Of a DNA stretch of 64,000 bases, positions 3,797 through 57,947 are shown one piece after another. Source of the DNA: Pseudomonadota bacterium (GTDB lineage Bacteria > Pseudomonadota > Gammaproteobacteria > JBCCGL01). The notes beneath the pieces were generated by a model. That model was not told where the DNA came from, made no database searches, and was given only the letters and a program-made list of their open reading frames with translations. The stretch is from NCBI GenBank assembly GCA_039029275.1, contig JBCCGL010000007.1, positions 213,428 through 277,427 on the forward strand. Reading direction: 5' to 3'. A program made the translations under genes and the position numbers. Each line of letters begins with the position of its first letter. Within the stretch, counting starts at the first letter, position 1.

Positions 3797-3837
3797 ACGA
3801 TACTTATGATAATAATGAATTTGGAAAACACAGCTTT

Positions 3838-29911: not shown

Positions 29912-31910
<1,999 letters not shown>

Positions 31911-31911
<1 letters not shown>

Positions 31912-36516: not shown

Positions 36517-36575
36517 GCAATCGCTCCGAAATTCATTTTGCTGTCAGGTCTGCTGACGACGGGCGCAATGATACT

Positions 36576-38882: not shown

Positions 38883-38950
38883 TCAGCTCCCAAATCACGT
38901 CATGAAGATAACGCATCAAATCCGTTTGGCATTTATACTAATGGCTAAAC

Positions 38951-39579: not shown

Positions 39580-40341
39580 TTACGCCTCGTACTTTCGAAT
39601 ACCAAGTTTTTGCATCGTAGCAAAGCAGATAAACATAGGCACGATTGTGAAGTAGCGCTTCCACAACCGGCGAGGTTCTGTAATAAGTCGAAACAACCAC
39701 TCCAAGCCAGAACGTCGCAAAAACTTCGGCGCCTGACGGGTTCGACCCGCGTGAAAATCAAATGCTGCCCCCACTCCAACGAGCACCGGTGCGTGTAATT
39801 TGGCTCGATGTTCGGCCATCCATCGCTCCTGCTTTGGCGTGCTCAATCCGACCCAAACAATATCGGCTTCAGACGCATTAATTTGATTGGCAATTTCTTC
39901 GCTCTCCTGATCGGTGAGTGCACGAAACGGCGGTGATATGGCGCCTACAATCTGGATTTTGGGAAAACGCCGTTTTAGATTTGCCTGCAGCGCTGCCAGA
40001 GACTCCTCTGATGCCCCATAGAGAAAGTGGCGATATCCGTGGTCGTGCCCGTGATTGATCACTTCGAGCATGAGGTCAGGACCGTATACGCGGTCAGCCT
40101 GTTTGTGGCCTTCGCTGCGCATAAACCAAACCAATGGCATACCATCAGGAGTAACCAGGCCAGCATGATTGTGGATTTGCTTCAGCGCATCGTCAAACTG
40201 GCTTTCAATTATGCCGTGTACCGACGTCACACAAACGTACCGAGCAACCCGTTTGCCAATCCACGAGTGAATGGTGCCGACTGCTTCTGGCATATTGGTC
40301 GCACTTTGTCGTACGCCAAGAATATTGCAACGTTCAACCAT
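39580..40341 (-). CDS. WecB/TagA/CpsF-family glycosyltransferase (start taken at MVERCNILG)
   Basis: LLYGASEE, RFPKIQIVG, IVWVGLSTPKQE. Confidence 0.8.
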   Translation of the reverse strand: MVERCNILGVRQSATNMPEAVGTIHSWIGKRVARYVCVTSVHGIIESQFDDALKQIHNHAGLVTPDGMPLVWFMRSEGHKQADRVYGPDLMLEVINHGHDHGYRHFLYGASEESLAALQANLKRRFPKIQIVGAISPPFRALTDQESEEIANQINASEADIVWVGLSTPKQERWMAEHRAKLHAPVLVGVGAAFDFHAGRTRQAPKFLRRSGLEWLFRLITEPRRLWKRYFTIVPMFICFATMQKLGIRKYEA

Positions 40342-41620
40342 TCTGGTATTGCCCCGGGGTGCTTTGGTTTGTTGTGTTTCGCTGCCCCGACTTACGCCGA
40401 TCAGCGAGCAGCACAACAAGGTCAGCTTGATCTTCGGCTAACCTTTCAGACGCTGCGACCAACGCCAGTATTAATAAAAATGTCGTGGGGTTTGGGATAA
40501 TCAGTACCGGATTAAATAGTCCGCCAATAACACCCGAAACGAGCATTCCCATCAAAAAGGCATCCTTCGATTTGATAGCAATGATCAATGCGTAGAAAAG
40601 GATGATCAGCATCAATCCCAGTCCGATAATGCCAGTTGTTAATGCCGCTTCCACGTAACTGTTGTGGGCATGTCCAGCGAACGCAAAATGCTCTAAAAGA
40701 AAATATCGACTGGAAAAATATCCGACACCGAAAAAAGGGCTGTCTGATATAAATTCACTGGATTTTATCCATAGTGGAACTCGATTGTTTAAAGTCCAAA
40801 AGTCACGCGGCAAATTCTCGATGATGTCACCTGACAATAGGAAAACGACGAAAACCAACACGCATGCGACTGTGCAAAACCACAGTGCTACTCGCGTAGT
40901 GATTCCGCCAGAAAAATACATCACAACTGCTACAACGAGGGGGCACATCCCGATGAGGTTACGTCCGTGGGTCAAGAGAAGTATGTAGAAAAACACACCA
41001 CCGAGTATTAATTTGAGTGCAATGGGTGCACGTAATACGGTAGTAATAATTATTGCAATCAACATCAGCTCACCGGTTTCAAGAGGGTGAGAATAGCCGA
41101 GGTAAAAGCGACCTGGGCGACCGCTCCATTCGGATGCCTCGGTAAATCTAAACGGCGATCCTCCTTCTATCGCAAAGTTGGCGAATATCAATGCCACCAC
41201 CGCCGCAAAGACGCCTAACGCAATTACACGCAGAAAGCTGTTGGAGTCCAAAATGTCGAGCCCCTTCATGTAAACCACAAGCGCAACTGCGATGAAGTAA
41301 CATAGAATGAGCTCACCTCCTTTGCCGAACGACAATACGGGGTTTGTCGACCATAAAAATGTGAGCATCGCCCAGACGGCATACGCCAGTACTACAAACC
41401 ATCCTGCCGACTTAATCGCAACATAGCACTGGTTCACTATGATCGCTATGACGATAATTCCGGATGCGGCCAACAAAAGTCCGATTTCAATCACACGACT
41501 AATGCTGGACTCGCTGGTCATTACATTGCCAGTTTCCACAACGGGCATAAAAGCCATCACAACCAGAAAAATGATACAGGCAGGCAGATACAGGGTTGAC
41601 ATGTGGCCAGGACGATTCAC
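40334..41620 (-). CDS. O-antigen ligase / Wzy-like polytopic membrane protein
   Basis: 428 aa, 10 or more TM helices, Wzy_C-like loop. Confidence 0.7.
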   Translation of the reverse strand: MNRPGHMSTLYLPACIIFLVVMAFMPVVETGNVMTSESSISRVIEIGLLLAASGIIVIAIIVNQCYVAIKSAGWFVVLAYAVWAMLTFLWSTNPVLSFGKGGELILCYFIAVALVVYMKGLDILDSNSFLRVIALGVFAAVVALIFANFAIEGGSPFRFTEASEWSGRPGRFYLGYSHPLETGELMLIAIIITTVLRAPIALKLILGGVFFYILLLTHGRNLIGMCPLVVAVVMYFSGGITTRVALWFCTVACVLVFVVFLLSGDIIENLPRDFWTLNNRVPLWIKSSEFISDSPFFGVGYFSSRYFLLEHFAFAGHAHNSYVEAALTTGIIGLGLMLIILFYALIIAIKSKDAFLMGMLVSGVIGGLFNPVLIIPNPTTFLLILALVAASERLAEDQADLVVLLADRRKSGQRNTTNQSTPGQYQNG

Positions 41621-41622
41621 TG

Positions 41623-42822
41623 TCAGTGCCTTATGTGATTGCCGGCGCGGGTTTGTTGCGACGTTTGCATTGCCTGTTCGTAGATATCCATCAGCAGAGG
41701 ATAGTTTGATTCCTCCGTGTAGTTATCAAGATAAGTATTACGCGCATTGTTTCGCATTGTTGCGAGCTGTCGGTGCGATGTGCTGTATATTTCGGCTATT
41801 TTATCAGCCAGGTCGCCGGAATTCGTTGGCTCGAAAAATAGTCCGTTTACGCCATTGTTAACCAGCTCTGAAATACCTCCGATATTGGAGGCGACAACAG
41901 GTGTTCCTTTTGAAAATGACTCTATCACCGTACGACCAAACGGCTCATACCATCGTGATGGGATGACCAGGCATTTAGCCTCCCCTACTATCTTCATGGT
42001 TTGCTCAAGTGGTAATTGACCCAACCATTCGATGTTACAGCTTAAAGACGCTTGACGCGCAAGATCTGCCATAGGTCCGTCGCCAATTATCTTCAATTGA
42101 TAGTTAGAACCGAGTATTTCCCATGCACTCAGTAACGTTTCTAAATCCTTTTCTTCAGATAGACGACCAACAAACACCGCGTAGTTTCCTGACCCTTGTC
42201 CTTTGTCAATTTCACCTGATAGAAAATTCGGTTTAACAAACATACGTTGCGGGTCAAATCCAGCTTCGATATATTTTTTCCGAGTGAACTCGCTGATAGC
42301 AAAAAATGCGCTCACCTTTTTCTGCCAGGTACGAACGGAACGGTGAACCGCATTATGGAGCGTGAGGATCGTGGACGCGGCCAAGTCACCCCGGTAACAT
42401 TTGTGAACGATTGCGGGATACGCAATACGTTTATTAATGCACTTCTCGCAGATGCTTCCCTGCCTCAATAACGTTGCGCCGGGACAGATTAAGCGATAAT
42501 TTCTTAGCGACTGAACGACAGCGACGCCTTTCTTCTGCGCCGCAAAGTAAACAGACGGTGAAAGCAGCGGGAATATATTGGTGCAGTGAATGACATCCGG
42601 CTTGAAATCGCTAATCTTCTTCTCAACACGGCGATAAGAATTGCGACTCCAGAAAGTATCGATTGCTAATGCAATTTTCCCTTGATCGTTTACCTGATCG
42701 TTGTGCACGGTTAGTGTTTCGACAGCGTGGCCATGATTCCTGAGCATCGAAATTTCGTCATGAAACGACAGGTCTTCACCACCGCGAAGTTGGTAATAAT
42801 TGTGGCAGGCGAGTACGCGCAT
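41623..42822 (-). CDS. Glycosyltransferase family 4
   Basis: GT4 EX7E-type C-terminal region. Start ATG shares one nucleotide with the upstream stop. Confidence 0.85.
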   Translation of the reverse strand: MRVLACHNYYQLRGGEDLSFHDEISMLRNHGHAVETLTVHNDQVNDQGKIALAIDTFWSRNSYRRVEKKISDFKPDVIHCTNIFPLLSPSVYFAAQKKGVAVVQSLRNYRLICPGATLLRQGSICEKCINKRIAYPAIVHKCYRGDLAASTILTLHNAVHRSVRTWQKKVSAFFAISEFTRKKYIEAGFDPQRMFVKPNFLSGEIDKGQGSGNYAVFVGRLSEEKDLETLLSAWEILGSNYQLKIIGDGPMADLARQASLSCNIEWLGQLPLEQTMKIVGEAKCLVIPSRWYEPFGRTVIESFSKGTPVVASNIGGISELVNNGVNGLFFEPTNSGDLADKIAEIYSTSHRQLATMRNNARNTYLDNYTEESNYPLLMDIYEQAMQTSQQTRAGNHIRH

Positions 42823-43463
42823 TACACCACAATTTTTCTGCAATAAAATGCTTCGGCGTAACCGCTCTTTGCGTTGCATTCGATGCCGCGAATGCGCATC
42901 AAACTTTCAAATGTCTCACGAGAAAACCAATTTTTCTCGAATTGACTTGTAAAGCACTGGGTCAGATAGTCCACCTTATTTTTAACTGTCTCAGGTTCCA
43001 GTCGAAAATAAAGGTTGGGCTGACCCAGATCGCCTTCATACTTTGGAATTTCATATTCCAGAATCAGATTGTCACGAAACGTATTCCAGCATACCTCACC
43101 TAACAAGCGATGGTCCTGATGCCGATCTTCAAGCCTATGTGTGATGACCAGATCCGGATTGAATTCTCCTCGTAATTCACTGAATAGAGCTTTTATTTCT
43201 TTGTGTGAGTCAAACAAAAGGGTGTCGGTAAATGATTCGCATCTGACATTTGCATGTTTGGCGGTGGCGAGAAATTTTTGGGCAGACGCTTCGGCTTCTT
43301 TAAGCCTGACCCCGTTTGCACTCATGACTAACCAGTAAACTCTGATATTGGGGTTTGAGTCAATAAGTTGTAGAAGCGCACCACCGCAGCCGATTTCGAT
43401 GTCGTCGGCGTGTGCTCCCACCAGTAGAACGCTGCCAATTGACGAAAGATCTGGATGATACAT
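42822..43463 (-). CDS. PIG-L / LmbE-family N-acetylglucosaminyl deacetylase
   Basis: LLVGAHADDIEIGCGG. Confidence 0.8.
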   Translation of the reverse strand: MYHPDLSSIGSVLLVGAHADDIEIGCGGALLQLIDSNPNIRVYWLVMSANGVRLKEAEASAQKFLATAKHANVRCESFTDTLLFDSHKEIKALFSELRGEFNPDLVITHRLEDRHQDHRLLGEVCWNTFRDNLILEYEIPKYEGDLGQPNLYFRLEPETVKNKVDYLTQCFTSQFEKNWFSRETFESLMRIRGIECNAKSGYAEAFYCRKIVV

Positions 43464-43490
43464 TGAGCGGCCCGGTTTTCGATCTAAGTC

Positions 43491-44210
43491 TTAGTCGGAG
43501 AAAACCCAGGGAGCTTCACCGCTGGCATACATTTCATCAAGCATCGCTTTCTCCTTATAAGTGTCCATGCAGCCCCAAAAGCCCGGGTAATGATACGCGT
43601 GAAGTTTTTCTGCATTGATTAAACGGTCAAAGGGTTCTTCAACGAGCTCTTCACCTTCGTTGATATGCTCGAAAATATCGTAGTCGAATATAAAAAAACC
43701 GCCATTCATCCAAACTCCGGCCTGATCGACAGGATATATTTTCTGCACTTGCCCGCTATCCTTGGACTCAATTACGTGGAAGCTGTGGTACTTGGGTGAG
43801 ACAGCAACAAACGTAGCAGTGCCCTCACTGGCTTTGTGAAATTCATACATTTTGCTAAGTCGCACACTCGACAAACCGTCGGCGTAATTCGCAAAAAATG
43901 TCTCCCCTGGTTCAAAGCACTCACGGGACGCTAGAAGTCGCTGGCCGAGGTTTGCGTCTATCCCCGTGTCACGAACGCTGATTGTCCAGTCATTTGGAAC
44001 GCAATCGGGTCGCTTGCTGAAGTAATCCCTGATGATGTCGGCTTTCCAGCCCACGCACAAAATGAATTCAGTGTGTCCAAAGTACGCGTAGTAATGCATG
44101 ATGTGGACGACCATTGGTCTGTCGCCAACGGGAACCATCGGTTTTGGCAAAGGGTTAGTGTCGCCGCCAAGACGCATTCCCATACCACCGCAAAAAAGTA
44201 ATACTTTCAC
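43491..44210 (-). CDS. rfbF: Glucose-1-phosphate cytidylyltransferase
   Basis: 239 aa, FCGGMGMRLG. Confidence 0.88.
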   Translation of the reverse strand: MKVLLFCGGMGMRLGGDTNPLPKPMVPVGDRPMVVHIMHYYAYFGHTEFILCVGWKADIIRDYFSKRPDCVPNDWTISVRDTGIDANLGQRLLASRECFEPGETFFANYADGLSSVRLSKMYEFHKASEGTATFVAVSPKYHSFHVIESKDSGQVQKIYPVDQAGVWMNGGFFIFDYDIFEHINEGEELVEEPFDRLINAEKLHAYHYPGFWGCMDTYKEKAMLDEMYASGEAPWVFSD

Positions 44211-44252
44211 CTACGAGCCTCCAAGCAAACCTGGCGTACGAAAATGATCATT

Positions 44253-45530
44253 TTAAAAAACATCAAGGTGTGGGATCGGTACTACAAATTTACATCCCCA
44301 TTCACGAACGTAGGCGAGCTGATCAGTGATTTCTTCCCGTAAGTTCCAGGGCAAAATAAGTATGTAGTCAGGCCTGGTTTTTGCTATCACATCCGGAGAG
44401 TGAATAGGGATATGGCTGCCAGGCATGAACTTGCCCTGTTTGAAATCGCTGCGATCAACCGTGTAGTCAAGAAAGTCCTCACGAATTCCACAATAGTTCA
44501 ACAGAGTACCGCCCTTACCGGGGGCACCGTAACCGACTACTGATTCGCCGGCACGTTTCTTATCGATCAGAAATTCGAGCAAGGCACGTTTTATTTCCTT
44601 TGCTCTATCGCTGAAGGCCTGATAAGTCTGCATCTGATCAAAACCGTCAGCGATCTCCTGTGATTTAACGCGATCGACAGAATTAGATACCTTGTGTGTC
44701 TGACAGTCCGCGTGTTTAACGTAGTAACGCAGTGAGCCACCGTGTGTTGGAAGCTCATCAACATCGAAAACAATCAGGTCGTGGGCCTCGAATATTTTTT
44801 GAGCACTGAGTAGTGAGTAGTACGAGAAATGTTCTTGATAAAATTGATCAAACTGATTGCCTTTGATCGTTTTTGCCACATGCGGTATTTCAACTGTCAG
44901 GACACCGTCATCCGCTAACGCTATTTTCATCCCCGCGACAAAATCATTGATGTCAGGGACATGACCAAAGACATTGTTTGCGATCAGCAAATTTGCTTTT
45001 CGCCCTTCTTCGGTCAAATCTCTTGCGCATTCGCTGCCAAAAAATCTGGCAATTGTCTCAATGCCTTTACTTCGCGCGTACTCCGCAATGTTTTCTGCAG
45101 GTTCAATACCTAAGGCCGGAATTCCACGTGCTTTAACGTATTGAAGGAGGTAACCGTCATTACTTGCGATTTCGATTACCTGGCTATTTGCGTCAATTCC
45201 AAACCGTTCAACCATATTACCTACGTAATCGTCAACATGTTTTAACCATGATTCAGAGAATGAAGAGAAATATGCGTAGTGGCTGTAGATTTCTTCACCG
45301 CTGACGAAATCCAGTACTTGAACAAGGTAACAGGAGCTGCACACATAGGCTTTGACCGGGTACGTGGGCTCCATAGAATCGAGCGCTTCACGCGCAACGT
45401 AGCTTTCGCACAATGGCTGCATGCCAAGATCGACGACTTGCTGTGTTAATTCTGACTCGCAAAACCGGCAGAAGTGTTTGCTAGCGGTCGCTCCGGCGAC
45501 TGAGGTTTTCATTGCGGCTTGGGCACTCAT
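44253..45530 (-). CDS. NDP-hexose C-methyltransferase (TylC3/TcaB9-like: N-terminal Cys4 zinc ribbon, SAM-MT, C-methyltransferase C-domain)
   Basis: CRFCESE...CSSCYLVQ Cys pairs. IASNDGYLL SAM motif. Confidence 0.75.
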   Translation of the reverse strand: MSAQAAMKTSVAGATASKHFCRFCESELTQQVVDLGMQPLCESYVAREALDSMEPTYPVKAYVCSSCYLVQVLDFVSGEEIYSHYAYFSSFSESWLKHVDDYVGNMVERFGIDANSQVIEIASNDGYLLQYVKARGIPALGIEPAENIAEYARSKGIETIARFFGSECARDLTEEGRKANLLIANNVFGHVPDINDFVAGMKIALADDGVLTVEIPHVAKTIKGNQFDQFYQEHFSYYSLLSAQKIFEAHDLIVFDVDELPTHGGSLRYYVKHADCQTHKVSNSVDRVKSQEIADGFDQMQTYQAFSDRAKEIKRALLEFLIDKKRAGESVVGYGAPGKGGTLLNYCGIREDFLDYTVDRSDFKQGKFMPGSHIPIHSPDVIAKTRPDYILILPWNLREEITDQLAYVREWGCKFVVPIPHLDVF

Positions 45531-45580
45531 ATTAATTCACGCATCTAGTGGAATATTGAAAAAAATCACGGCACCTGATA

Positions 45581-46927
45581 TCAGCATGCCTGCTCAATAC
45601 CTTGAATCATTTCGAGCAAATTTTTTTCTCTAAGCGTATTCGCTGCTCGCCTGAGGGTACCCACGCTTAATCCACTGCGCTGTGCGATGCTCAGCAAATC
45701 CTGTTCGCCATCGGCACAACTGAGCATCCATAAAACAGCTTTGTGAAATGCGTCGCGTCCTGCATCTCGCGAATACCCTTCATAAAGGTTGTGCGGCGCA
45801 AGAAAAGGCTCCGCGCCATTCAAAACGGTTTTGAATACCGCGTTTGCGTCTACCGCATGTAACATTGCGAGCACCTTGTCGTAGGAATCTTGCAGACTCT
45901 GAGGGCAGACGATGTCCATGTTGTCAGCCGAGGTGTGGTATTGCGGATACTCCCCGTACGGCGTCCGCATCACGCAACCGACAGGCAGATTGATACCTGG
46001 CGAGCAATACTGGCGCTCGTCGTGCCCCCAGGGCACAAATGGGCGAATGTCGTGATCGTCACCGCTTTGTTGCAAAATCAAATCTGCAGCCCTATCGAAC
46101 TCGCTTGTTGCATGCCGTGATTGCTTATAGTGTATATGACCACTGTCGCCTAAAAGGCCGATCGAATATCCGCCTTTGATCTTGTTGAGTTGATTTTCGT
46201 TTTTCGCAAGCCATGTAATCGAGCCGATTGTTGCGGGCACAAATACGAACCGAAAACTGTAGTGGCATTTTGACTGCAAAAGCGTTTTAGCCAAGAACGC
46301 CGATACTGCAATTCCTGAAACATTGTCGTTGGCAAGCGCTGGATGACAAATATGCGTGGAGACAATAATTTCCTCATTCGACGCGCCCGGTACAAGCACT
46401 TCGCCATAACTAAGAGAACCGTCGAAATGATCAGCATCAACAAATACCTTGAATCGCTCCCCGCTTCGGGCTTTCATATCGCGGTATTGCTGTCGCTTAA
46501 CACAAAAACCCCACGACGGCGTGAAGTACGATGTTCGATAAGGAACAGCATCGTCAAATTCATGAACTGTATATAAATGCGGCTCCAGTTCTTCCCAGGT
46601 GAAATATGCATCGACCGCCGTGCTGTAACTCATTAAATGCAAATTGGAGTTTTCGATATCGACAATCTTGCGACCGGTTGAGTCCGCGATATACGCAGCG
46701 TTGACTCGCCATTCTTTCGGCACAGTCCAGTCAAATACAGCCGTGCCAGTGGGAATTTCAAAAGTCTGGATTGGAACGTGCTCTCCAATCGCGTTTAGCG
46801 TCATCCGATTCCCATCGCCGGTGATACTGCGTGGAAGATCAAACAGTGTTTCCATGAACTCATAGATCGCGTCGCCTTCTACACTCGGTGAGGTTGCCGG
46901 ATGAACACTATGAGGTGAGTTTTTCAC
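45581..46927 (-). CDS. DUF4910 / COG4310 aminopeptidase-like (M28-like) domain protein with C-terminal winged-helix region
   Basis: 448 aa. Resembles the conserved unknown-function protein found in glycan clusters. Confidence 0.65.
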   Translation of the reverse strand: MKNSPHSVHPATSPSVEGDAIYEFMETLFDLPRSITGDGNRMTLNAIGEHVPIQTFEIPTGTAVFDWTVPKEWRVNAAYIADSTGRKIVDIENSNLHLMSYSTAVDAYFTWEELEPHLYTVHEFDDAVPYRTSYFTPSWGFCVKRQQYRDMKARSGERFKVFVDADHFDGSLSYGEVLVPGASNEEIIVSTHICHPALANDNVSGIAVSAFLAKTLLQSKCHYSFRFVFVPATIGSITWLAKNENQLNKIKGGYSIGLLGDSGHIHYKQSRHATSEFDRAADLILQQSGDDHDIRPFVPWGHDERQYCSPGINLPVGCVMRTPYGEYPQYHTSADNMDIVCPQSLQDSYDKVLAMLHAVDANAVFKTVLNGAEPFLAPHNLYEGYSRDAGRDAFHKAVLWMLSCADGEQDLLSIAQRSGLSVGTLRRAANTLREKNLLEMIQGIEQAC

Positions 46928-48234
46928 TGGTTATAGGTTCGGTACACAACCTGTGTTGGACCGCCAGAGAGATAACGATCAACCCCGTCGCTGATCGCAC
47001 GTGAGTAAACCGCTAGTGCTCCATCTACTGCTTCAATGGTTTTGTCGACATCATCGTTCGAATGGGAATAGCTGATAATGAATGACGGCCCGATAATACC
47101 GCGCTTGATGATTTCCTGCATAAACAGGGCACGATAATACTGCGATGATTTTTTGTCTTGATCTTTAGTTACATAGACAAGGCATTGGGGTTCGCCAACG
47201 ATTTGCACATAGTCTTGGAGATCGTGGTTTGCAATTACTTCATCCAACCCAGATTTCAGCCTCATGCCTTGATTACTCAGGGTTTCAATGACGGGTTCAT
47301 TCTTGTATGTATCCATGGTTGCGATAGCGGCTGCTAGCGCGTGAGTTTCTGCACCGTGCGTGGTTGATAACAAAAACACACGTGGGTGATTGTGATACAG
47401 GCCACCTCGTTCCATGTATTGCGATTTTCCTAACAGTGCTGAAACGGCAAACCCATTGCCTAACGCTTTGCCAAATGTCGATAGGTCAGGTTCGATATCG
47501 TAAAGAGACTGGCAGCCACCGTTGTGCCAGCGAAAACCCGTTATCATTTCGTCCAGAACAAACAAGGCACCGTTCCTATGGCAAAGATCTTTAACTCTGT
47601 GTAAAAAGTTATCTTTCGGCGGTTCGTATTTAGTCGGCTCCAAAATCACACAGGCGATTTCATTGGGGTTCGCGTTAAAGAGTGCCTCAAGGCCGTTTAT
47701 ATCATTGAAGGAAAATGTTAGAGAAAGCGATTTTGTTTGCTCTGGAATACCGGCGTCCATGGCAGTTTTTCCGATAAACCAATCATTCGTGGCAAAGAAC
47801 GGATGGTCAATGCAAAACGCTACCTTGTCGCGACCGGTCACCGCACGCGCGAGCTTTACAGCTGCAGTTGTCGCTGACGAACCATCTTTGACAAACTTAA
47901 CCATTTCCGCTGCCGGTACCATTTCTAAAAGTGACTGAGCGCAATAGGTTTCAATTGGGGCGGGGCGACAAAAATTAGCCCCATTTAGCATTTCATTCTG
48001 CGCGGCCTCTACCACTGGTGGATACGCGTGCCCCAAAGTGACCGCGCGGCAGCCCATTCCGTACTCGATATATTCGTTGTCATCGAAGTCCCATACGTGA
48101 CTACCCGATCCGCGTTTCAAGAATGCCGGTGAATTTTCCGGAAATTGGTCGTCGCCCTTCGCATATGTGTGACATCCACCTGGGATAATTTCGTGGCAGA
48201 TTTTTTGTAGGGACTTTGATTCATCTGACTGCAT
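46924..48234 (-). CDS. Class-III (GSA-aminomutase-like) PLP aminotransferase
   Basis: 436 aa, LDEMITGFR PLP-lysine region. Confidence 0.85.
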   Translation of the reverse strand: MQSDESKSLQKICHEIIPGGCHTYAKGDDQFPENSPAFLKRGSGSHVWDFDDNEYIEYGMGCRAVTLGHAYPPVVEAAQNEMLNGANFCRPAPIETYCAQSLLEMVPAAEMVKFVKDGSSATTAAVKLARAVTGRDKVAFCIDHPFFATNDWFIGKTAMDAGIPEQTKSLSLTFSFNDINGLEALFNANPNEIACVILEPTKYEPPKDNFLHRVKDLCHRNGALFVLDEMITGFRWHNGGCQSLYDIEPDLSTFGKALGNGFAVSALLGKSQYMERGGLYHNHPRVFLLSTTHGAETHALAAAIATMDTYKNEPVIETLSNQGMRLKSGLDEVIANHDLQDYVQIVGEPQCLVYVTKDQDKKSSQYYRALFMQEIIKRGIIGPSFIISYSHSNDDVDKTIEAVDGALAVYSRAISDGVDRYLSGGPTQVVYRTYNQ

Positions 48235-48256
48235 GATTAACTCGCTTTCAAGTTTT

Positions 48257-49408
48257 CTATCTGGTCAATCCATGTGCGCTACGGTATGCACGTTCAAACA
48301 CCTCGATCTGACCGAGGCTGAAATCACGCATGTTATGAGCTGAATCAGTGAAATAGTGCTTGTACCAGTCGACTGTATGTTGCAGCGCCTCGTCAATACC
48401 CCACACTGGCCGCCAGTGTAATTGCCATAGAGCTTTGTCAATCGTGAGGCGCAAAATCGTCGATTCATGCGGTTGCTCCGGATCGCTGCAATCTTGCCAA
48501 CTGCCGTGCCCCCAAACAGACAGAAAGCGTTCAACAATGTCGCGAACAGGCAGCTCGTTACCGGGCACGGGGCCAAAATTCCAACCACTGCAGTACGTTG
48601 GATCGTCAGAGCTTAAAAGTCGATCAGCTAATGTGAGATAGCCACTCAGGCATGAAAGCACATGCTGCCACGGTCTGTATGCACCCGGATTTCGAATATG
48701 TGCGGGTTTGTTTTGCGATATCGCGGCGATCAAATCAACCAGTAAGGCATCTGCCGTCCAATCACCGCCTCCAATTACGTTGCCTGCACGCGCACTTGCT
48801 AGTTTTACACCGTGTTCACTAATTTTTTCTTCGGGAAAGAAAGAAGAGCGGTAGCTTTGAACAACTATCTCAGTGCTACCTTTGCTTGCCCCGTAAGGGT
48901 CAGGTGATCCAAAGGCGTCTGATTCACGATAGCCCCACACTTGTTCACGATTTTCATAACACTTGTCGCTGCTCACAACAATAACGCTGCAAGGTTTGTC
49001 GAGACCCCGAACACCATCCAGCAGACATGCAGTACCCACTGTGTTTATATCGAACGTTTCGCGCGGTGAACGATAACCCTCTAGCACGACAGTTTGCGCT
49101 GCCATGTGAATTATCAAATCTGGGGTCGCCTCGCGCATCGCTGCATGCATCTTCGACTCATCACGGATATCACCTTCTATATGGCGTGCAAGCGTCGATT
49201 CGATCTGTGAGATCGAGAAGTGATTTGGCGTTGTTGGAGGGGTCCATGAATAGCCGGTTACCTCCGCGCCAAGACGTTGCAACCACAAACACAACCACGG
49301 GCCTTTAAATCCGGTGTGTCCGGTAACGAAAACCCGCTTACCTTTTATTGATTGAAACAACTGGTTTGACAATGTGATAAACCAAAATAGACTGATTGAA
49401 CTAAGCAA
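48257..49408 (-). CDS. rfbG: CDP-glucose 4,6-dehydratase (true start probably about 20 codons inside the ORF)
   Basis: KGKRVFVTGHTGFKGPWLCLWL. Confidence 0.88.
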   Translation of the reverse strand: MLSSISLFWFITLSNQLFQSIKGKRVFVTGHTGFKGPWLCLWLQRLGAEVTGYSWTPPTTPNHFSISQIESTLARHIEGDIRDESKMHAAMREATPDLIIHMAAQTVVLEGYRSPRETFDINTVGTACLLDGVRGLDKPCSVIVVSSDKCYENREQVWGYRESDAFGSPDPYGASKGSTEIVVQSYRSSFFPEEKISEHGVKLASARAGNVIGGGDWTADALLVDLIAAISQNKPAHIRNPGAYRPWQHVLSCLSGYLTLADRLLSSDDPTYCSGWNFGPVPGNELPVRDIVERFLSVWGHGSWQDCSDPEQPHESTILRLTIDKALWQLHWRPVWGIDEALQHTVDWYKHYFTDSAHNMRDFSLGQIEVFERAYRSAHGLTR

Positions 49409-50351
49409 TCTTTGGCGACACTCGCGACACGATGTTGTTCAATCGAGTTTCCGCGATGAGCCACCACTTCTTGTATTGAAATAGGTAAACAATAAGCCAG
49501 AAAATACACTTAAGTTTCGTAGACGCGTCGTTCCCACTGTCCATTGCAACCGACAAGTAGCCGGAAAACTGCCGCAACAGGGGGGTATGTATAATTCGTT
49601 TCCGAATAGCGGAATTTTTTGACTCACGTGTAGCGCCTGAAATTGAACCGGAGTGAACACGCTGGCTGAACAGCATCTGTGGTAAATCCCAAAAGCGTCC
49701 ATGTACAGCCAACTCAGCCATCATTAACTTTTCTGACCCGTAGAACGATTGCATTAGTCCGGTTTTACCCAATGCTTCGGACTTGAAAACGCCGGAGCAG
49801 CGCACGCCCCACCCTGACGACAGCAACACATCGCCAAAACGTCGGGAAAAATAGTGTGACGACCCATCGCGTCTGTGCCGGATGTTGTCCTTCTCTTGAC
49901 CACCATCCGTGGGGTCAGGAAAGCCCTTAATCTCGTTACCGTACTCGTTAATCGTCATCGTGCGCGAGTGACAACAAACAACGCTCAAATCGTTCTCCAG
50001 AACCTCTACGCACCTTGCCACGAACTCCGGATCACATAGATCATCACAAGCGGCCCACTTAAAATACTTACCATTGGACAAGTGGAAAACACGCGAGAAA
50101 TTCCAGTTTGACCCTTTGTTTTGACTCTCCCTGACGTAACGTATTCTTTTGTCCTTCTCCGCGTATAATCGACAAATCTCAGCTGTTTGATCGGTCGATG
50201 CGTTATCCGAAATCACGATCTCGATGTTGTCGTAAGTCTGGGCGAGCAATGAGTCGAGCGACTCTGATAGAAACTCATCAGCGTTGTACACCGGTACCCC
50301 GATACTGACCAGCGGTTGTTGTGAATTGCTCTGATTCATTTCAGTCCGCAA
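49401..50351 (-). CDS. Glycosyltransferase family 2
   Basis: VSIGVPVYNADEFL...ISDNASTD. Confidence 0.85.
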   Translation of the reverse strand: MRTEMNQSNSQQPLVSIGVPVYNADEFLSESLDSLLAQTYDNIEIVISDNASTDQTAEICRLYAEKDKRIRYVRESQNKGSNWNFSRVFHLSNGKYFKWAACDDLCDPEFVARCVEVLENDLSVVCCHSRTMTINEYGNEIKGFPDPTDGGQEKDNIRHRRDGSSHYFSRRFGDVLLSSGWGVRCSGVFKSEALGKTGLMQSFYGSEKLMMAELAVHGRFWDLPQMLFSQRVHSGSISGATRESKNSAIRKRIIHTPLLRQFSGYLSVAMDSGNDASTKLKCIFWLIVYLFQYKKWWLIAETRLNNIVSRVSPKIA

Positions 50352-50354
50352 TCG

Positions 50355-51848
50355 CTAGTACGCGTTCTCACCAACGATGCCGCGAAATGCAGTCATCACC
50401 AGAATCTTGATATCCAAACCAATTGACCAGTTATCAATATAGTAAAGGTCATGATCGACGCGTTTGCGCATGTCGGCTTCTTCCCACACTGCTCCACGCA
50501 ATCCATTAACCTGAGCCCAGCCGGTGATGCCTGGGCGTACGCGATGGCGCGCAAAATATCGTGTGACAACAGGCGCAAATTCGTCACCCAATGGCACTGG
50601 GTGTGGGCGGGGACCAATCAGCGACATAGTGCCTTGCAAGACGTTCAATATTTGCGGTAACTCATCAATACTGGTGCTTCGCAGAAACGCGCCAATTCGT
50701 GTAATCCGAGGATCGTCACGCAACGTTTGATCTTCACCTGAGACAGGTGCGGCGCCTTCTTTCATTGTGCGAAATTTGTAAACGAAGAATTCCTTGTTAT
50801 TGAATCCGTGACGAGGCTGCCTAAACAATGCAGGTCCCGGGCTGTCCAATCGAATGAGAATCGCCACTATCAGTAAGATCGGTGATAATAAAATGATTAG
50901 AATAAAAGCAAGGATTTTATCCTCTGCCAGTTTTAGCGCGTATCGCCATCCGTCCAGGGGGTGGAATACGATATCTAATGTTTTTACGTTGCCGATTGCA
51001 CTGTTAGTCGGGGTGGAGTAAATGAAGTTTTCAAGATTACTGCCAAGGCGAATGTTAATCGGTAATTCCATCAACTTTTCTATGATTTCACCGATACGCT
51101 TATTGGCAGTCCAAGGTAAAGTAATGACAATGTCGTCGACTCGATTACGACGGCAAAACTCTATAACGTCGTCAACCTTTCCCCATTTTTTCGATTGAAG
51201 TCGCCTCTCGAATCCCTCTCGCTGTATTCTGTCGTCAAAGACCCCTATTACTCGGTTCCAAGGCTCAGATTCGTAATCCAGACCATCGAGAAAATGATCG
51301 GCCTCGGCGCCACCTCCAATCAGGACAATACGGCGAACGAAACGACCATGCCGCGCTAACCAGTGCAATAGAAAAAACCAGACGATTCGGTGAACGCCGA
51401 AGAGAACCAATGAGGATGCAAACCAACTGAGCAACCACAGGCGTGAAAACTGATCAGAGATTTTTAGAAAAAAGGCGACCGCAGTGAATAGTAGAAACAC
51501 AACGCCGACGGAAAGTACTTGTCTCCAAACAAATCCAACCGGGCGCGAAATCGCATTAAAGCTATCCAACTTCCATAAAAAATTGGAAACTACAATCCCT
51601 ATCGAGATCATAACGCAGGCAGAAAAATGCTGACTAAGCAAGGCGTTTTCTACCCCAAGGATGACTACGAAGGAAGCAGCACCGGTCAGAATCAGGATCA
51701 GGAAATCGACAGTGAACACGGCAGCGATGATCACGGCTTCAGAATACGGCACCACCTTTCGTCTCCGTCTGGGCTTTATCTCATTGTCCGACGGCGAAAC
51801 GCTAAAGTCCTGACTCATGTAATGACTACCAAAATTTGCGCTGACCAT
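50355..51848 (-). CDS. Undecaprenyl-phosphate hexose-1-phosphate transferase (WbaP/WcaJ-type initiating enzyme)
   Basis: 497 aa. N-terminal TM block plus CoA-binding-like domain, C-terminal sugar-transferase domain DELPQ...SLIGPRP. Confidence 0.88.
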
Positions 51849-51891
51849 TTGCGGAATTCAAACCCGGAACACATACATCCAAATTCCATGA

Positions 51892-52878
51892 TCATGTAAC
51901 CGCTGCCACGCGCGGTTTCAGTTGAATTGACCTAAAATAGTCTATGGTCTTCGCGAGCCCATGCTCTATCCCAATTTCCGGTTTCCATTTCAGTTCCTGC
52001 TTAGCAAGCGTAATGTCAGGGCAACGACGCACCGGGTCATCTTGTGGTAGTTCTTCAAAAACGAGTTCCGAATTCGACGCGCATAATTCGATCACAAGCT
52101 CAGCTAACTCCCGTATAGTTTTTTCCGAGGGATTGCCTAAATTAACAGGGCCAGTGAACTTAGAATCGGTTTGTGCAATTTTGATAAATCCCTCGATTAA
52201 GTCATCAACATAACAAAACGAACGGGTTTGATTGCCCTCACCGAACACCGTCAGTGGCTCATTATTGAGAGCCTGAATTATGAAATTTGAAACCACACGC
52301 CCATCGTCCGGATACAGACGTGGACCGTAAGTGTTAAATATTCGGGCGACTTTAATTTCAAGATGGTGTTGACGGTGATAATCGAAAAACAAGGTTTCTG
52401 CGCAGCGTTTGCCTTCGTCATAGCATGCACGGGGCCCCACAGGGTTCACGCTACCGAGATAGCTTTCGTGTTGTGGATGGACTTCAGGGTCTCCGTAAAC
52501 TTCACTGGTGGATGCTTGTATTATTTTGGCGCCGACGCGTTTAGCCAGCCCGAGCATATTGATCGCCCCGTGAACGTTTGTTTTTACCGTTTGCGCGGGG
52601 TCGCTTTGGTAATGTATTGGAGACGCCGGGCACGCAAAGTTAAATATTTCGTCTACTTCCACATAAAGCGGGAATGTAATGTCGTGCCTCAACAGCTCAA
52701 AGCGCGTGTCGTCGAGTAAGTGAACAACGTTGTCGCGTGAGCCGGTATAGTAGTTGTCGACACAAAGGACTTCGCAATCCTCTGCAAGCAAACGCTCGCA
52801 TAAATGTGAGCCAAGAAACCCTGCTCCCCCTGTCACAAGCACACGCTTGCGCCCCCAGTTTCTTCGTCTGCTTGTCAT
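51892..52878 (-). CDS. UDP-glucuronate decarboxylase (UDP-xylose synthase, short-chain dehydrogenase/reductase family)
   Basis: [20 protein letters not shown] catalytic motif. Confidence 0.88.
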
Positions 52879-53402
52879 CTTGTGTTGATCAAAATTTCCG
52901 TTCGATGGGTGATGTGTCGACCGCTTAATGAAAAAGTAAAGCGGTCGAAAGTGTAACCGCTGATCGGACGGGTTATTTTGAGGTGAAGCACAGAATCTGC
53001 TCCAAGGGCGCTGGGGTAATGAGAGGCAACGCGTTGAATACTATTGTTTTTGTGAACGCGATCACCATTGTGTGAGAACGCGTCGAATCAGAACAGATCT
53101 TTCAGGAAAACATGAGCGCAGCGGTTAACACAAACAGATAAAACTTATTGACTATCAGTTCACTATCAACGCGATGCGCATTCAGACATTCGCATCAACG
53201 AAAGGCAGGTTTCGCGATTCTCTTTGTATCGCAGCGCGGGGAAATCTGGATTGTCGTGGTTACGCCGAATTACGTATCGCGGGGCAAATCGCTGTCAATA
53301 TAAGCCCGAGTCTATTTGGATGGTTCAGCACGAGCCTTGACCCTCTGCAGCTCTTGTGTCTAAGCAATTGTGAGCGTTCAGAATTCAAGCTCTGAGGAGC
53401 GG

Positions 53403-54479: not shown

Positions 54480-54499
54480 TGGTCAATCTCTACAAACTG

Positions 54500-55384: not shown

Positions 55385-55484
55385 ATCACTCCATTATGGT
55401 ACACACGTACTAATTTGTATTGACAATTATTCAAATGTATCAATACTACGCGACCAAGTCGAGTTTTTTTAGCGCAAAATTGAG

Positions 55485-57926: not shown

Positions 57927-57947
57927 ATCACAAAGTGAGTTCACAAT

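What the first reader, a model, noticed from the sequence alone, without database searches (positions are those of the whole stretch)
39580..52878. 13-kb single-strand glycan locus combining a UDP-xylose branch and a CDP-hexose branch, but with no flippase, chain-length regulator or exporter
Reading direction is 52878 to 39580. The genes in order are UDP-glucuronate decarboxylase, WbaP-like initiating transferase, GT2, CDP-glucose 4,6-dehydratase, class-III aminotransferase, DUF4910, C-methyltransferase, Glc-1-P cytidylyltransferase, PIG-L deacetylase, GT4, Wzy/ligase-like protein, and TagA-like GT. Several junctions show translational coupling by ATGA or 1-nt overlaps. A Wzy-like protein without Wzx, Wzz, Wza or Wzc, and without an ABC transporter, is unusual. 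The cluster is also 35 kb from the TviB/TviC-like UDP-GalNAcA genes at 2504-4845.
Basis: partly seen in the sequence, partly recalled or inferred. Interest (0 to 1): 0.5.

Follow-up and report, generated by a model that had tools for sequence, protein, structure and literature searches.

The report
Glycan gene island lacking its flippase
This is a 13-kb, horizontally acquired surface-sugar gene island that belongs to a widespread cluster family making an uncharacterised branched sugar, and unlike most of its relatives it lacks the flippase, chain-length and export genes, which most likely lie elsewhere in the genome.

Summary
No Wzx, Wzz/PCP, Wza/OPX or ABC-2 exporter lies in the locus or anywhere in the 64-kb window.

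Three corrections:
- The initiating transferase is WcaJ-type (glucose-1-phosphate), not WbaP-type.
- PIG-L and DUF4910 are not stand-alone genes. With the class-III aminotransferase, the 3-C-methyltransferase and the RfbF-like nucleotidyltransferase they form a conserved five-gene sugar cassette. All five were found together in 40 of 56 genome loci from many phyla, including the uncharacterised Brucella chromosome-II polysaccharide island.
- The polytopic protein belongs to the Wzy/WaaL superfamily. It is not a Wzx.

Related loci usually read (OPX)-PCP-PGT-Wzx-Wzy-GT4-WecG-SDR-GT2-cassette. A Wzx gene is present in 12 of 14 informative relatives. The window carries a stripped version, inserted next to comEC-DUF2062, where the two relatives examined have lolCD directly.

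Best reading: this is an undecaprenyl-diphosphate repeat-unit assembly and polymerisation island that depends on a flippase, and on a ligase or exporter, encoded elsewhere. That dependence is inferred. The rest of the metagenome-assembled genome could not be searched. Interest is moderate, mainly for the uncharacterised sugar cassette.

The parts
51892..52878 (-). UDP-glucuronate decarboxylase (UXS), which makes UDP-xylose
   Evidence: E 6e-119 over residues 9-317 to human UXS1, PDB 2b69/4gll. Pfam Epimerase and GDP_Man_Dehyd. No UDP-glucose 6-dehydrogenase was found in the window to supply its substrate.
50355..51848 (-). Initiating polyprenyl-phosphate hexose-1-phosphate transferase, WcaJ type
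   Evidence: Bac_transf plus CoA_binding_3. TIGR03023 WcaJ_sugtrans scores 453 bits against a cutoff of 410.75; the WbaP model scores 240.5 against a cutoff of 403. About 5 hydrophobic segments.
49401..50351 (-). GT2 glycosyltransferase
   Evidence: Pfam Glycos_transf_2, E 3e-29. Homologues scoring 130-237 bits recur beside the cassette and GT4 in other phyla.
48257..49408 (-). CDP-glucose 4,6-dehydratase
   Evidence: TIGR02622 equivalog, 425.5 bits against a cutoff of 278. The TTG start at 49408 is provisional. The Rossmann motif begins at about residue 24 of the ORF, so the shorter 297-aa gene call in L001 is too short.
46924..48234 (-). Class-III (glutamate-1-semialdehyde-aminomutase-like) PLP enzyme of the sugar cassette
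   Evidence: NF004856, 694.5 bits against a cutoff of 486. 62-70% identical to homologues from several phyla; all 8000 scored candidates reach E <= 1e-40. K256 in the FGK motif, taken to be the PLP lysine, is invariant.
45581..46927 (-). DUF4910/DUF2172/HTH_47 protein (M28-peptidase-like, CA_C2195 family)
   Evidence: Pfam DUF4910, 332 bits. E 7e-112 to PDB 3k9t. The family was linked to modified-sugar biosynthesis by gene neighbourhood in PMC4000134.
44253..45530 (-). NDP-4-keto-sugar 3-C-methyltransferase (TylC3/TcaB9-like)
   Evidence: Methyltransf_13, _23 and _14 domains. E 2e-81 to a D-mycarose 3-C-methyltransferase (4rv9) and about 1e-61 to the 5t64 sugar 3-C-methyltransferase and TcaB9.
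43491..44210 (-). RfbF-like sugar-1-phosphate (probably glucose-1-phosphate) cytidylyltransferase
   Evidence: Pfam NTP_transferase. TIGR02623 scores 166 bits, below its cutoff of 300. The sequence keeps the RfbF-type C-terminal GFW..MDT...APW motif (motif identity from my own knowledge, sequence).
42822..43463 (-). PIG-L/LmbE-family putative deacetylase, part of the sugar cassette
   Evidence: Pfam PIG-L, 53.8 bits. The closest solved structure is BshB, E 3e-6. The AHADD and HQDH metal motifs are present. Adjacent to the NTP-transferase gene in 38 of 40 cassette loci.
41623..42822 (-). GT4 glycosyltransferase, conserved partner of the cluster family
   Evidence: Pfam Glycos_transf_1. 40-47% identical to GT4s of Planctomycetota, Hyphomicrobiales and metagenome loci, with four invariant cysteines. 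570 related stretches in metagenomes. Its start overlaps the PIG-L stop by 1 nt.
40334..41620 (-). Wzy_C-superfamily polytopic membrane protein: putative repeat-unit polymerase, alternatively a ligase or O-oligosaccharyltransferase
   Evidence: Pfam Wzy_C, 48.8 bits against a cutoff of 31.7. About 10 transmembrane segments. R280, H319 and H178 are invariant in alignment A3, and an H-N-x9-G-x2-G motif is present. It scores 61 bits over residues 7-392 against a profile of the Wzy proteins of related loci, built without it. It has only one homologue (32% identity) in the k-mer-filtered search of 5.8 billion proteins.
39580..40341 (-). WecG/TagA/CpsF-family (GT26) glycosyltransferase
   Evidence: Pfam Glyco_tran_WecG, 213.8 bits. 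TIGR00696, 180 bits against a cutoff of 69. Homologues follow GT4 in the related loci.
52879..53402 (-). 524-nt non-coding leader upstream of the first gene
   Evidence: No ORF of 80 aa or more on the cluster strand. No Rfam match and no ops element. A hairpin followed by a T-run lies at 52961-52940. Function not established.

Best explanation
The locus is a compact, horizontally acquired island that builds and probably polymerises a repeat unit of about four sugars on undecaprenyl diphosphate. It is a stripped-down member of a widespread Wzx/Wzy-type cluster family.

Proposed mechanism:
1. The WcaJ-type transferase puts glucose-1-phosphate on undecaprenyl phosphate.
2. The GT26 (WecG-family), GT2 and GT4 enzymes add three further sugars. 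Their donors include UDP-xylose from UXS and a CDP-activated 6-deoxyhexose.
3. The five-gene cassette plus the CDP-glucose 4,6-dehydratase make that CDP-sugar: Glc-1-P to CDP-Glc, then CDP-4-keto-6-deoxy-Glc, then 3-C-methylation, then amination by the class-III PLP enzyme. DUF4910 and PIG-L carry out further steps that have not been characterised.
4. The Wzy_C protein polymerises the unit on the periplasmic face, or ligates it.

The island has no flippase, no chain-length/PCP protein and no outer-membrane exporter. These functions, and the UDP-glucuronate supply for UXS, must come from genes elsewhere in the genome.

What is shown: gene identities, cassette conservation, the gene order usual in relatives, absence of these genes from the 64-kb window, and the island's insertion site.
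What is inferred: the order of sugar additions, the chemistry after the dehydratase, supply of the flippase in trans, and the fate of the glycan (O-antigen or capsule/EPS).
For: - Gene identities.
- All twelve ORFs are intact and tightly coupled, with overlaps of -8, -4, -1 and -8 nt and gaps of +2 and +3 nt. This argues for an expressed operon.
- Cassette: in 56 genome loci of 20 kb or more anchored on the aminotransferase, 40 carry AT, DUF4910, C-methyltransferase, NTP-transferase and PIG-L together. In 36 of those 40 all five are on one strand, and NTP-transferase and PIG-L are adjacent in 38 of 40. The loci span Alphaproteobacteria, Planctomycetota, Chloroflexota, Cyanobacteria, Gemmatimonadota and Bacteroidota. 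The Brucella suis BRA0433-0439 island has the same arrangement.
- Gene order in relatives: the order PCP-PGT-Wzx-Wzy-GT4-WecG-SDR-GT2-cassette, or part of it, is seen in L093, L098, L135, L161, L166, L004, L011 and L007. Pfam confirms Polysacc_synt or Polysacc_synt_3 for the Wzx family, Wzz/GNVR for the PCP, and Poly_export in L099.
- Frequency: 12 of 14 GT4 loci that have a WecG or cassette gene and at least 5 kb upstream of GT4 carry a Wzx.
- The window's polytopic protein matches the Wzy proteins of those loci, not their Wzx proteins.
- Island status: the two relatives examined (DUF2062 about 60% identical) keep NUDIX-kdsB-lpxK-msbA-exbD-exbB-comEC-DUF2062. In one lolD/lolC follow directly, and in the other after a single unannotated 420-aa ORF. 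Neither has a glycan cluster there. Cluster GC is 47.8% against 50.4% for the rest of the window.
- A second dependence on genes elsewhere is visible: UXS has no UDP-glucose 6-dehydrogenase in the window. The only sugar dehydrogenase is TviB-like.
Against: - No flippase was identified anywhere, so supply in trans is an assumption. The rest of the MAG could not be searched, and the source genome is not among the GTDB representatives.
- Whether the Wzy_C protein is a polymerase or a ligase cannot be decided from sequence. Its only NCBIfam match is a weak one to the O-oligosaccharyltransferase TfpM (28 bits).
- The nucleotidyltransferase scores below the RfbF equivalog cutoff.
- No class-III aminotransferase is known to me that acts on an NDP-4-keto sugar, so the amination step is uncertain.
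- Donor specificities of the three glycosyltransferases are unknown.
Confidence: 0.6

Rival explanations
1. The Wzy_C protein is not a polymerase. It is a WaaL-type ligase or a PglL/TfpM-type O-oligosaccharyltransferase that transfers a single unpolymerised tetrasaccharide to lipid A-core or to proteins. In that case no chain-length regulator or exporter is needed, and only the flippase is missing.
For: - Pfam Wzy_C is the O-antigen-ligase family.
- The only NCBIfam match is to the O-oligosaccharyltransferase TfpM.
- The loop carries the H-N-x9-G-x2-G motif described for WaaL-type ligases (for the sequence; the motif definition is from my own knowledge).
- The island has no PCP or OPX gene.
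- It lies about 4 kb from msbA-lpxK-kdsB.
Against: - In related loci the homologous protein sits directly after a Wzx and near PCP or OPX genes, which is the classic position of a polymerase.
- The TfpM score is 28 bits against a cutoff of 600.
- Proximity to msbA-lpxK reflects conserved synteny that also exists in relatives without the island.
- A flippase is still required.
Confidence: 0.2
2. The island is a non-functional or decaying fragment of a larger Wzx/Wzy cluster. It was captured without its flippase and export genes and makes no surface glycan.
For: - It lacks Wzx, PCP and OPX, which most relatives have.
- Its gene order is rearranged relative to the order usual in relatives.
- It is an insertion relative to related genomes.
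Against: - All twelve ORFs are full length, with catalytic motifs intact and translational coupling preserved.
- There are no frameshifts and no Wzx pseudogene fragments of 50 aa or more in the six-frame translation.
- Initiating a sugar chain on undecaprenyl phosphate without a flippase would trap that carrier lipid, which established work on O-antigen mutants shows to be harmful, so the initiating transferase gene would be expected to degrade first.
Confidence: 0.12
3. The repeat unit is flipped by something other than a MOP-family Wzx. Candidates are the neighbouring MsbA-type ABC transporter (as PglK and Wzk do elsewhere), the Wzy_C protein itself, or the adjacent DUF2062 membrane protein.
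For: - Variants with no Wzx within the DNA held for the locus recur in otherwise complete relatives. L099 has OPX, PCP, PGT and Wzy but no Wzx within the 10 kb upstream of GT4. L014 and L137 are further cases.
- An MsbA gene lies 4 kb away and shares the PglK architecture (PglK model 205 bits).
Against: - The transporter is an MsbA equivalog (703 bits against a cutoff of 602) in the conserved msbA-lpxK-kdsB context, which is also present in relatives without the island.
- DUF2062 is likewise conserved without the island.
- No precedent is known to me for a Wzy_C protein acting as a flippase.
- The flanks of the variants that lack Wzx are truncated at 10 kb.
Confidence: 0.05

Closest known systems
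Wzx/Wzy-dependent heteropolysaccharide loci initiated by a WcaJ/GumD-type transferase (colanic acid, xanthan gum, Caulobacter holdfast hfs)
   Same: - A polyprenyl-phosphate glucose-1-phosphate transferase initiates the chain (TIGR03023 above cutoff).
- A WecG/TagA-family transferase is present, like GumM and HfsJ (from my own knowledge).
- GT2 and GT4 transferases and a Wzy_C-family polytopic protein are present.
- Sugar-nucleotide genes are embedded in the operon.
   Different: - There is no Wzx, no PCP (Wzc/Wzz) and no OPX (Wza) in the locus or in the 64-kb window.
- The sugar precursors differ: UDP-xylose plus a CDP-derived C-methyl sugar.
The uncharacterised cluster family PCP-PGT-Wzx-Wzy-GT4-WecG-SDR-GT2 plus cassette, found here in metagenomes and MAGs (for example L093, L135, L161, L166, L011, L004)
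   Same: - Homologues of GT4 (40-47% identity to L011, L014 and L004), the GT2, the WecG-family glycosyltransferase and the PGT.
- Homologues of the dehydratase, aminotransferase (57-69% identity), DUF4910, C-methyltransferase, NTP-transferase and PIG-L genes.
- A distant Wzy homologue (61 bits against the family profile).
   Different: - The window has no Wzx and no PCP.
- Its gene order is permuted: UXS-PGT-GT2-cassette-GT4-Wzy-WecG.
- It carries a true UXS, where most relatives have a different SDR next to WecG. UXS proper is seen in L004, L014, L018, L130 and L132.
Brucella chromosome-II 25-kb polysaccharide island (BRA0428-0439 / BMEII0827-0839) and its Phyllobacterium and Paramesorhizobium counterparts
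   Same: - The same cassette of GSA-aminomutase-like aminotransferase, DUF4910, C-methyltransferase, cytidylyltransferase-like NTP-transferase and PIG-L.
- A polysaccharide product is predicted but was not identified in the papers read.
   Different: - The Brucella-type locus starts with a WecA-type (Glycos_transf_4) transferase and has a Polysacc_synt flippase and a pyruvyl transferase.
- It uses a different SDR, plus an RmlC-like cupin and an apiosidase-like gene.
CA_C2195 (PDB 3k9t) neighbourhoods described in PMC4000134
   Same: The DUF4910/DUF2172/HTH_47 protein is embedded among a sugar epimerase/dehydratase, a nucleotidyltransferase, a glycosyltransferase and a methylase. The paper proposes a role in the biosynthesis of a modified surface carbohydrate.
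   Different: - That paper did not define the five-gene cassette with the class-III aminotransferase and PIG-L.
- The Clostridium locus it describes is a nonulosonate/flagellin-type context.
- No biochemical function has been established in either case.
TylC3/TcaB9-type NDP-sugar 3-C-methylation pathways of actinomycete antibiotics; CDP-linked 3-C-methyl sugar vinelose of Azotobacter
   Same: A three-domain C-methyltransferase with a zinc-binding N-terminal domain (E 2e-81 to 4rv9) that acts next to a 4,6-dehydratase. CDP activation resembles CDP-vinelose (from my own knowledge).
   Different: - The antibiotic pathways use dTDP-sugars and DegT-type aminotransferases.
- Here the nucleotide is predicted to be CDP and the aminotransferase is class III.
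- The M28-like and LmbE-like partners have no counterpart in those pathways.

Membership tests
Wzx/Wzy-dependent polysaccharide gene cluster | Initiating polyprenyl-phosphate sugar-phosphate transferase | tested here: met
   Bac_transf, 210 bits. TIGR03023, 453 bits against a cutoff of 410.75.
Wzx/Wzy-dependent polysaccharide gene cluster | Wzy-type polytopic polymerase | tested here: inconclusive
   Member of the Wzy_C superfamily, matching the Wzy proteins of related loci at 61 bits. Polymerase and ligase activity cannot be told apart from sequence.
Wzx/Wzy-dependent polysaccharide gene cluster | MOP-family Wzx flippase encoded in the locus | tested here: not met
   No Polysacc_synt-type hit among the window ORFs of 150 aa or more that were scanned. 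Profiles of the two Wzx families found beside related clusters give a best E of 0.6 in the six-frame translation.
Wzx/Wzy-dependent polysaccharide gene cluster | Chain-length regulator/PCP (Wzz, Wzc) and, for capsule or EPS, an OPX exporter (Wza) | tested here: not met
   No Wzz, GNVR or Poly_export hit in the window. These are present in relatives L004, L093, L135 and L099.
ABC-transporter-dependent (Wzm/Wzt) O-antigen or capsule pathway | ABC-2 permease plus ATPase pair in or next to the locus | tested here: not met
   The only ABC transporter in the window is an MsbA equivalog at 33660-35456, in the msbA-lpxK-kdsB context.
Wzx (MOP superfamily), as a candidate identity for the 40334-41620 protein | Match to Polysacc_synt/MOP profiles with the 12-TM MOP architecture | tested here: not met
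   The only Pfam hit is Wzy_C. There is no match to the Wzx profiles c0 or c3. About 10 TM segments, with an approximately 50-aa loop carrying conserved Arg and His residues. The AF2 model was unusable (pLDDT 40).
O-antigen ligase / O-oligosaccharyltransferase (WaaL, PglL, TfpM) | Wzy_C domain with a conserved periplasmic-loop Arg and a His in an H-[NSQ]-x9-G-x2-[GTY] motif | tested here: met
   Wzy_C scores 48.8 bits. R280 and H319 are invariant, and the motif HNSYVEAALTTGIIG is present. This feature is shared with Wzy_C-type polymerases, so it does not prove ligase function. TfpM scores 28 bits against a cutoff of 600.
Conserved sugar cassette (class-III AT, DUF4910, 3-C-methyltransferase, RfbF-like NTP-transferase, PIG-L) | All five genes co-directional within about 5-11 kb, with NTP-transferase adjacent to PIG-L | tested here: met
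   In the window the five genes span 42822-48234, contiguous and on one strand. The pattern was defined from 40 genome loci.
UDP-glucuronate decarboxylase (UXS) | Full-length high-scoring similarity to characterised UXS, clearly above other SDR sugar enzymes | tested here: met
   400 bits to human UXS1, against 135 bits to the next class of SDR. Activity was not tested.
CDP-glucose 4,6-dehydratase (RfbG/DdhB equivalog) | Score above the TIGR02622 cutoff | tested here: met
   425.5 bits against a cutoff of 278.45.
Glucose-1-phosphate cytidylyltransferase (RfbF equivalog) | Score above the TIGR02623 cutoff | tested here: not met
   166.5 bits against a cutoff of 300.25, in two stretches, with a shortened central loop. 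It is RfbF-like but not an equivalog, so its substrate is inferred.

The most novel reading that the evidence does not exclude
The island is self-sufficient. The undecaprenyl-diphosphate-linked unit crosses the membrane without any MOP-family Wzx. The flippase would be a housekeeping transporter, such as the MsbA encoded 4 kb away, or the Wzy_C-family protein itself. The recurrent variants of this cluster family in which no Wzx was found (window, L099, L014, L137) would then mark a Wzx-independent assembly route.

A second, more likely novelty is that the five-gene cassette makes a so far undescribed CDP-activated 3-C-methyl amino-6-deoxyhexose, using a class-III PLP enzyme, an M28-like protein and an LmbE-like protein.
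Probability: 0.06. Interest if true: 0.8.

Novelty: new variant of a known kind. Interest (0 to 1): 0.4.

Why it matters
The missing flippase is most likely a matter of gene location and is only modestly interesting. If the whole genome did lack a Wzx, the island would be a natural test case for how lipid-linked glycans can cross the membrane without one.

The more useful outcome is the context. The island belongs to a cluster family found in hundreds of genomes across at least six phyla, including the long-known but unexplained polysaccharide island on Brucella chromosome II. That family is built around a five-gene cassette whose sugar product and enzymology are uncharacterised as far as I could find: a GSA-aminomutase-like PLP enzyme, the DUF4910 M28-like protein with a solved structure but no known function, and an LmbE-like enzyme. 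Defining that sugar would assign functions to several large families of proteins of unknown function and would identify a widespread surface epitope.

Tried and rejected
1. Structure test of the polytopic protein. A sequence search of PDB found nothing at E <= 10.
2. Walking along the source contig. The exact-protein look-up found only short Logan contigs from run SRR22824298, and one look-up failed because of start-codon choice. The high-side extension holds only housekeeping genes. The 285-kb NCBI contig itself could not be retrieved.
3. The source genome is not among the GTDB species representatives, so wzx and wzz could not be sought in the rest of the genome.
4. Regulatory leader. There is no Rfam family and no RfaH ops element in the 524-nt leader; ops-like matches across the window are at chance level. 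Promoter-like and terminator-like hits are at or below shuffle expectation.
5. No tRNA gene flanks the island. Repeats and integrase genes were not searched for.
6. Literature searches for a biochemical characterisation of the cassette found only neighbourhood-level statements (PMC4000134) and Brucella comparative genomics (PMC1413539, PMC1435926).
7. Donor specificity of GT4 and the substrate of PIG-L. PDB matches are generic: GlgA-like for GT4, and BshB at E 3e-6 for PIG-L. A GT4 plus PIG-L 'GlcNAc transfer then de-N-acetylation' pair, as in MshA/MshB or PIG-A/PIG-L, was considered. It is neither supported nor excluded. PIG-L tracks the NTP-transferase gene rather than the GT4 gene.
8. A functional link between the island and the TviB/TviC-like pair at 2504-4845 was rejected, because that pair sits among unrelated housekeeping genes.

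Full report
**1. Observation**

The region 39580-52878 holds twelve co-directional ORFs on the minus strand and no sizeable intergenic space.

| Gene | Coordinates | Evidence |
|---|---|---|
| UXS | 51892-52878 | E 6e-119 to human UXS1 |
| WcaJ-type initiating transferase (PGT) | 50355-51848 | TIGR03023 453 bits vs cutoff 410.75; WbaP model 240.5 vs 403 |
| GT2 | 49401-50351 | |
| CDP-glucose 4,6-dehydratase | 48257-49408 | TIGR02622 425 vs 278 |
| Class-III aminotransferase (AT) | 46924-48234 | NF004856 694 vs 486 |
| DUF4910/DUF2172/HTH_47 protein | 45581-46927 | E 7e-112 to PDB 3k9t |
| TylC3/TcaB9-like 3-C-methyltransferase | 44253-45530 | |
| RfbF-like nucleotidyltransferase | 43491-44210 | TIGR02623 166 vs 300, below the equivalog cutoff |
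| PIG-L | 42822-43463 | |
| GT4 | 41623-42822 | |
| Wzy_C protein | 40334-41620 | |
| WecG/TagA/CpsF transferase | 39580-40341 | |

Junctions show coupling: GTGA between AT and DUF4910, TAATG between PIG-L and GT4, 8-nt overlaps at GT2/dehydratase and Wzy_C/WecG (depending on start choice), and +2 and +3 nt gaps elsewhere.

**2. Absence of transport genes**

I scanned the ORFs of 150 aa or more in the window against Pfam, leaving out eight that are nested inside longer annotated genes. None matches Polysacc_synt/Wzx, Wzz/GNVR, Poly_export or an ABC-2 permease. The one ABC transporter (33660-35456) is an MsbA equivalog in an msbA-lpxK-kdsB block.

The immediate flanks are DUF2062 and ComEC on one side and a Rieske oxygenase, an RpiR regulator and a dimethylglycine-dehydrogenase-like gene on the other. 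About 10 kb beyond the high edge of the window there are only housekeeping genes.

Profiles built from the two Wzx families I later found beside related clusters match nothing in the six-frame translation of the whole window (best E 0.6). So there is no flippase pseudogene either.

**3. The polytopic protein**

- It has about ten hydrophobic segments and a roughly 50-residue loop at 272-322.
- Its only Pfam hit is Wzy_C, and its only NCBIfam hit is a weak one to the O-oligosaccharyltransferase TfpM.
- Aligned with Wzy proteins of related loci, W90, H178, R280, W284, G298, G300, H319 and G330 are invariant.
- A profile of those proteins built without the window sequence scores it at 61 bits over residues 7-392.
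- It is therefore a Wzy/WaaL-superfamily protein, not a Wzx.
- It is nearly an orphan in the k-mer-filtered search of 5.8 billion proteins, with one homologue at 32% identity. From my own knowledge, that degree of divergence is common for Wzy proteins.

**4. The sugar cassette**

The aminotransferase is unusually conserved. It is 62-70% identical to homologues from several phyla, and all 8000 scored candidates reach E <= 1e-40.

Results from the loci anchored on the aminotransferase:
- In 56 loci with at least 20 kb of sequence, 40 carry homologues of AT, DUF4910, C-methyltransferase, NTP-transferase and PIG-L together.
- In 36 of those 40 all five genes are on one strand, and NTP-transferase and PIG-L are adjacent in 38 of 40.
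- The taxa include Brucella, Phyllobacterium, Paramesorhizobium, Planctomycetota, Chloroflexota, Cyanobacteria, Gemmatimonadota, Bacteroidota and Nitrospirota.
- The Brucella suis BRA0433-0439 genes, part of the 25-kb chromosome-II fragment absent from B. abortus and said to be 'possibly involved in polysaccharide synthesis', have this arrangement.
- DUF4910 (CA_C2195, PDB 3k9t) was proposed from gene neighbourhoods to act in modified-sugar biosynthesis (PMC4000134). I found no biochemical characterisation of it.
- Some variants (L002, L170) add an acyl carrier protein, an AMP-ligase, a decarboxylase and a FemAB-like acyltransferase. This fits an amino sugar that is N-acylated in those lineages.

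So PIG-L and DUF4910 are parts of the sugar-nucleotide module. They are not separate tailoring genes.

**5. The cluster family and the gene order usual in it**

The window's GT4 is 40-47% identical to GT4s next to the cassette in a Blastopirellula MAG, a Filomicrobium MAG and a soil metagenome contig.

In the longer loci a recurrent order appears: PCP (Wzz/GNVR), sometimes a ParA-like ATPase, PGT, Wzx, Wzy, sometimes an acyltransferase, GT4, WecG, an SDR, GT2, a second methyltransferase, and then the dehydratase and cassette. This order is seen in L093, L098, L135, L161 and L166, and in the genome or metagenome loci L004, L011 and L007.

Pfam confirms the following:
- Polysacc_synt or Polysacc_synt_3 for the Wzx family. 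Some members get no Pfam hit.
- Wzz/GNVR for the proteins of about 500-560 aa with two transmembrane segments.
- Poly_export in L099.

Among GT4 loci that also carry a WecG or cassette gene and have at least 5 kb upstream of GT4, 12 of 14 have a Wzx. The exceptions are L099 (OPX, PCP, PGT and Wzy present, no Wzx) and L137. L014 also shows none within +-10 kb.

The window has a permuted, minimal version: UXS-PGT-GT2-dehydratase-AT-DUF4910-C-methyltransferase-NTP-transferase-PIG-L-GT4-Wzy-WecG.

**6. Island status**

Two relatives found through the DUF2062 protein (about 60% identical) were examined. Both keep NUDIX-kdsB-lpxK-msbA-exbD-exbB-comEC-DUF2062. lolD/lolC follow directly in one, and after a single unannotated 420-aa ORF in the other. 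Neither has a glycan cluster there. The cluster's GC content is 47.8%, against 50.4% for the rest of the window. No tRNA gene flanks it. The 524-nt leader has no Rfam match and no ops element.

**7. Interpretation**

The best reading (confidence about 0.6) is a functional, horizontally acquired island for repeat-unit assembly and polymerisation. It relies on a flippase encoded elsewhere, on either WaaL (an O-antigen fate) or PCP/OPX (a capsule or EPS fate), and on a UDP-glucose dehydrogenase. That dehydrogenase is also absent from the window: the only one present is TviB-like.

What is shown:
- the gene identities;
- the conserved cassette and cluster family;
- the absence of transport genes from 64 kb;
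- the insertion site.

What is inferred:
- the reaction order after the 4,6-dehydratase (3-C-methylation, then amination);
- the roles of DUF4910 and PIG-L;
- the glycosyltransferase donors;
- supply of the flippase in trans.

Rivals:
- The Wzy_C protein is a ligase or O-oligosaccharyltransferase that transfers a single unit (0.2).
- The island is a non-functional fragment (0.12). Twelve intact, coupled ORFs argue against this.
- Flipping is non-canonical (0.05).

**8. Novelty and score**

The locus is a new, reduced variant of a known kind of system, the Wzx/Wzy-type glycan cluster. The missing flippase is real and atypical for this cluster family, but the ordinary explanation that it is encoded elsewhere could not be excluded.

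The more valuable by-product is a delineated, very widespread cluster family and five-gene cassette for an uncharacterised CDP-linked branched sugar. Interest: 0.4.

Noticed in passing
window 31318-39541; L167, L169: The block NUDIX-kdsB-lpxK-msbA-exbD-exbB-comEC-DUF2062 is syntenic with the two relatives examined. In those, lolD/lolC follow DUF2062, directly in one and after a single unannotated ORF in the other. In the window the glycan island and then betaine/sarcosine-type catabolic genes follow instead, so lolCD have been displaced from this site.
   Followed up: partly
window 41623-42822; alignment A2: The GT4 family tied to this cluster has four invariant cysteines in its N-terminal domain (C113, C125, C128, C142 in the window protein). 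This suggests a metal-binding site, which as far as I know is unusual for GT4 enzymes.
   Followed up: no
window 46924-48234: The GSA-aminomutase-like PLP enzyme of the cassette is 57-70% identical across at least six phyla. That is much higher than for its neighbours, for example GT4 at 40-47%. It implies strong constraint, frequent horizontal transfer, or both.
   Followed up: partly
L004 4307-5632, L047 2896-4314, L007 138-1538, L093 3197-4660: The Wzx family that accompanies the related clusters is so divergent that some members have no Pfam hit at E <= 0.01, while others just pass the Polysacc_synt or Polysacc_synt_3 cutoff. Automated annotation would therefore miss the flippase in some of these loci.
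   Followed up: partly
L099 3543-14321: This metagenome locus has Poly_export, a GNVR-type PCP, PGT, Wzy, GT4, WecG, SDR and GT2 genes, but no Wzx between PGT and Wzy or anywhere in the 10 kb upstream of GT4. It is a second variant of the same cluster family in which no Wzx was found.
   Followed up: partly
L002 4899-8180; L170 1795-5233: Some cassette variants carry an acyl carrier protein, an AMP-dependent ligase, an Orn/DAP-type decarboxylase and a FemAB-like Acetyltransf_6 gene. This suggests the sugar's amino group is acylated with an amino-acid-derived group in those lineages.
   Followed up: no
window 2504-4845: A TviB-like NDP-sugar 6-dehydrogenase (NF011729, 564 bits against a cutoff of 592) and an SDR epimerase form an isolated pair. 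They lie between a response-regulator gene and NUDIX/mnmA housekeeping genes, with no glycosyltransferase nearby.
   Followed up: partly
window 11161-12318: This ORF has a strong match to indoleamine 2,3-dioxygenase (Pfam IDO, E 2e-70). It lies next to a LysR regulator and an isoaspartyl-peptidase/asparaginase-like gene. As far as I know this enzyme family is uncommon in bacteria.
   Followed up: no
window 52940-52961 (minus strand): A hairpin followed by a T-run lies about 60 nt upstream of the UXS start, within a 524-nt non-coding leader. It could be the terminator of the upstream Rieske gene or an attenuator for the island.
   Followed up: no
window 53403-59306: A Rieske oxygenase, an RpiR/SIS regulator, a DAO-GCV_T fusion (dimethylglycine/sarcosine-dehydrogenase-like) and a second class-III aminotransferase form a probable osmolyte or amine catabolic cluster directly upstream of the island.
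   Followed up: no
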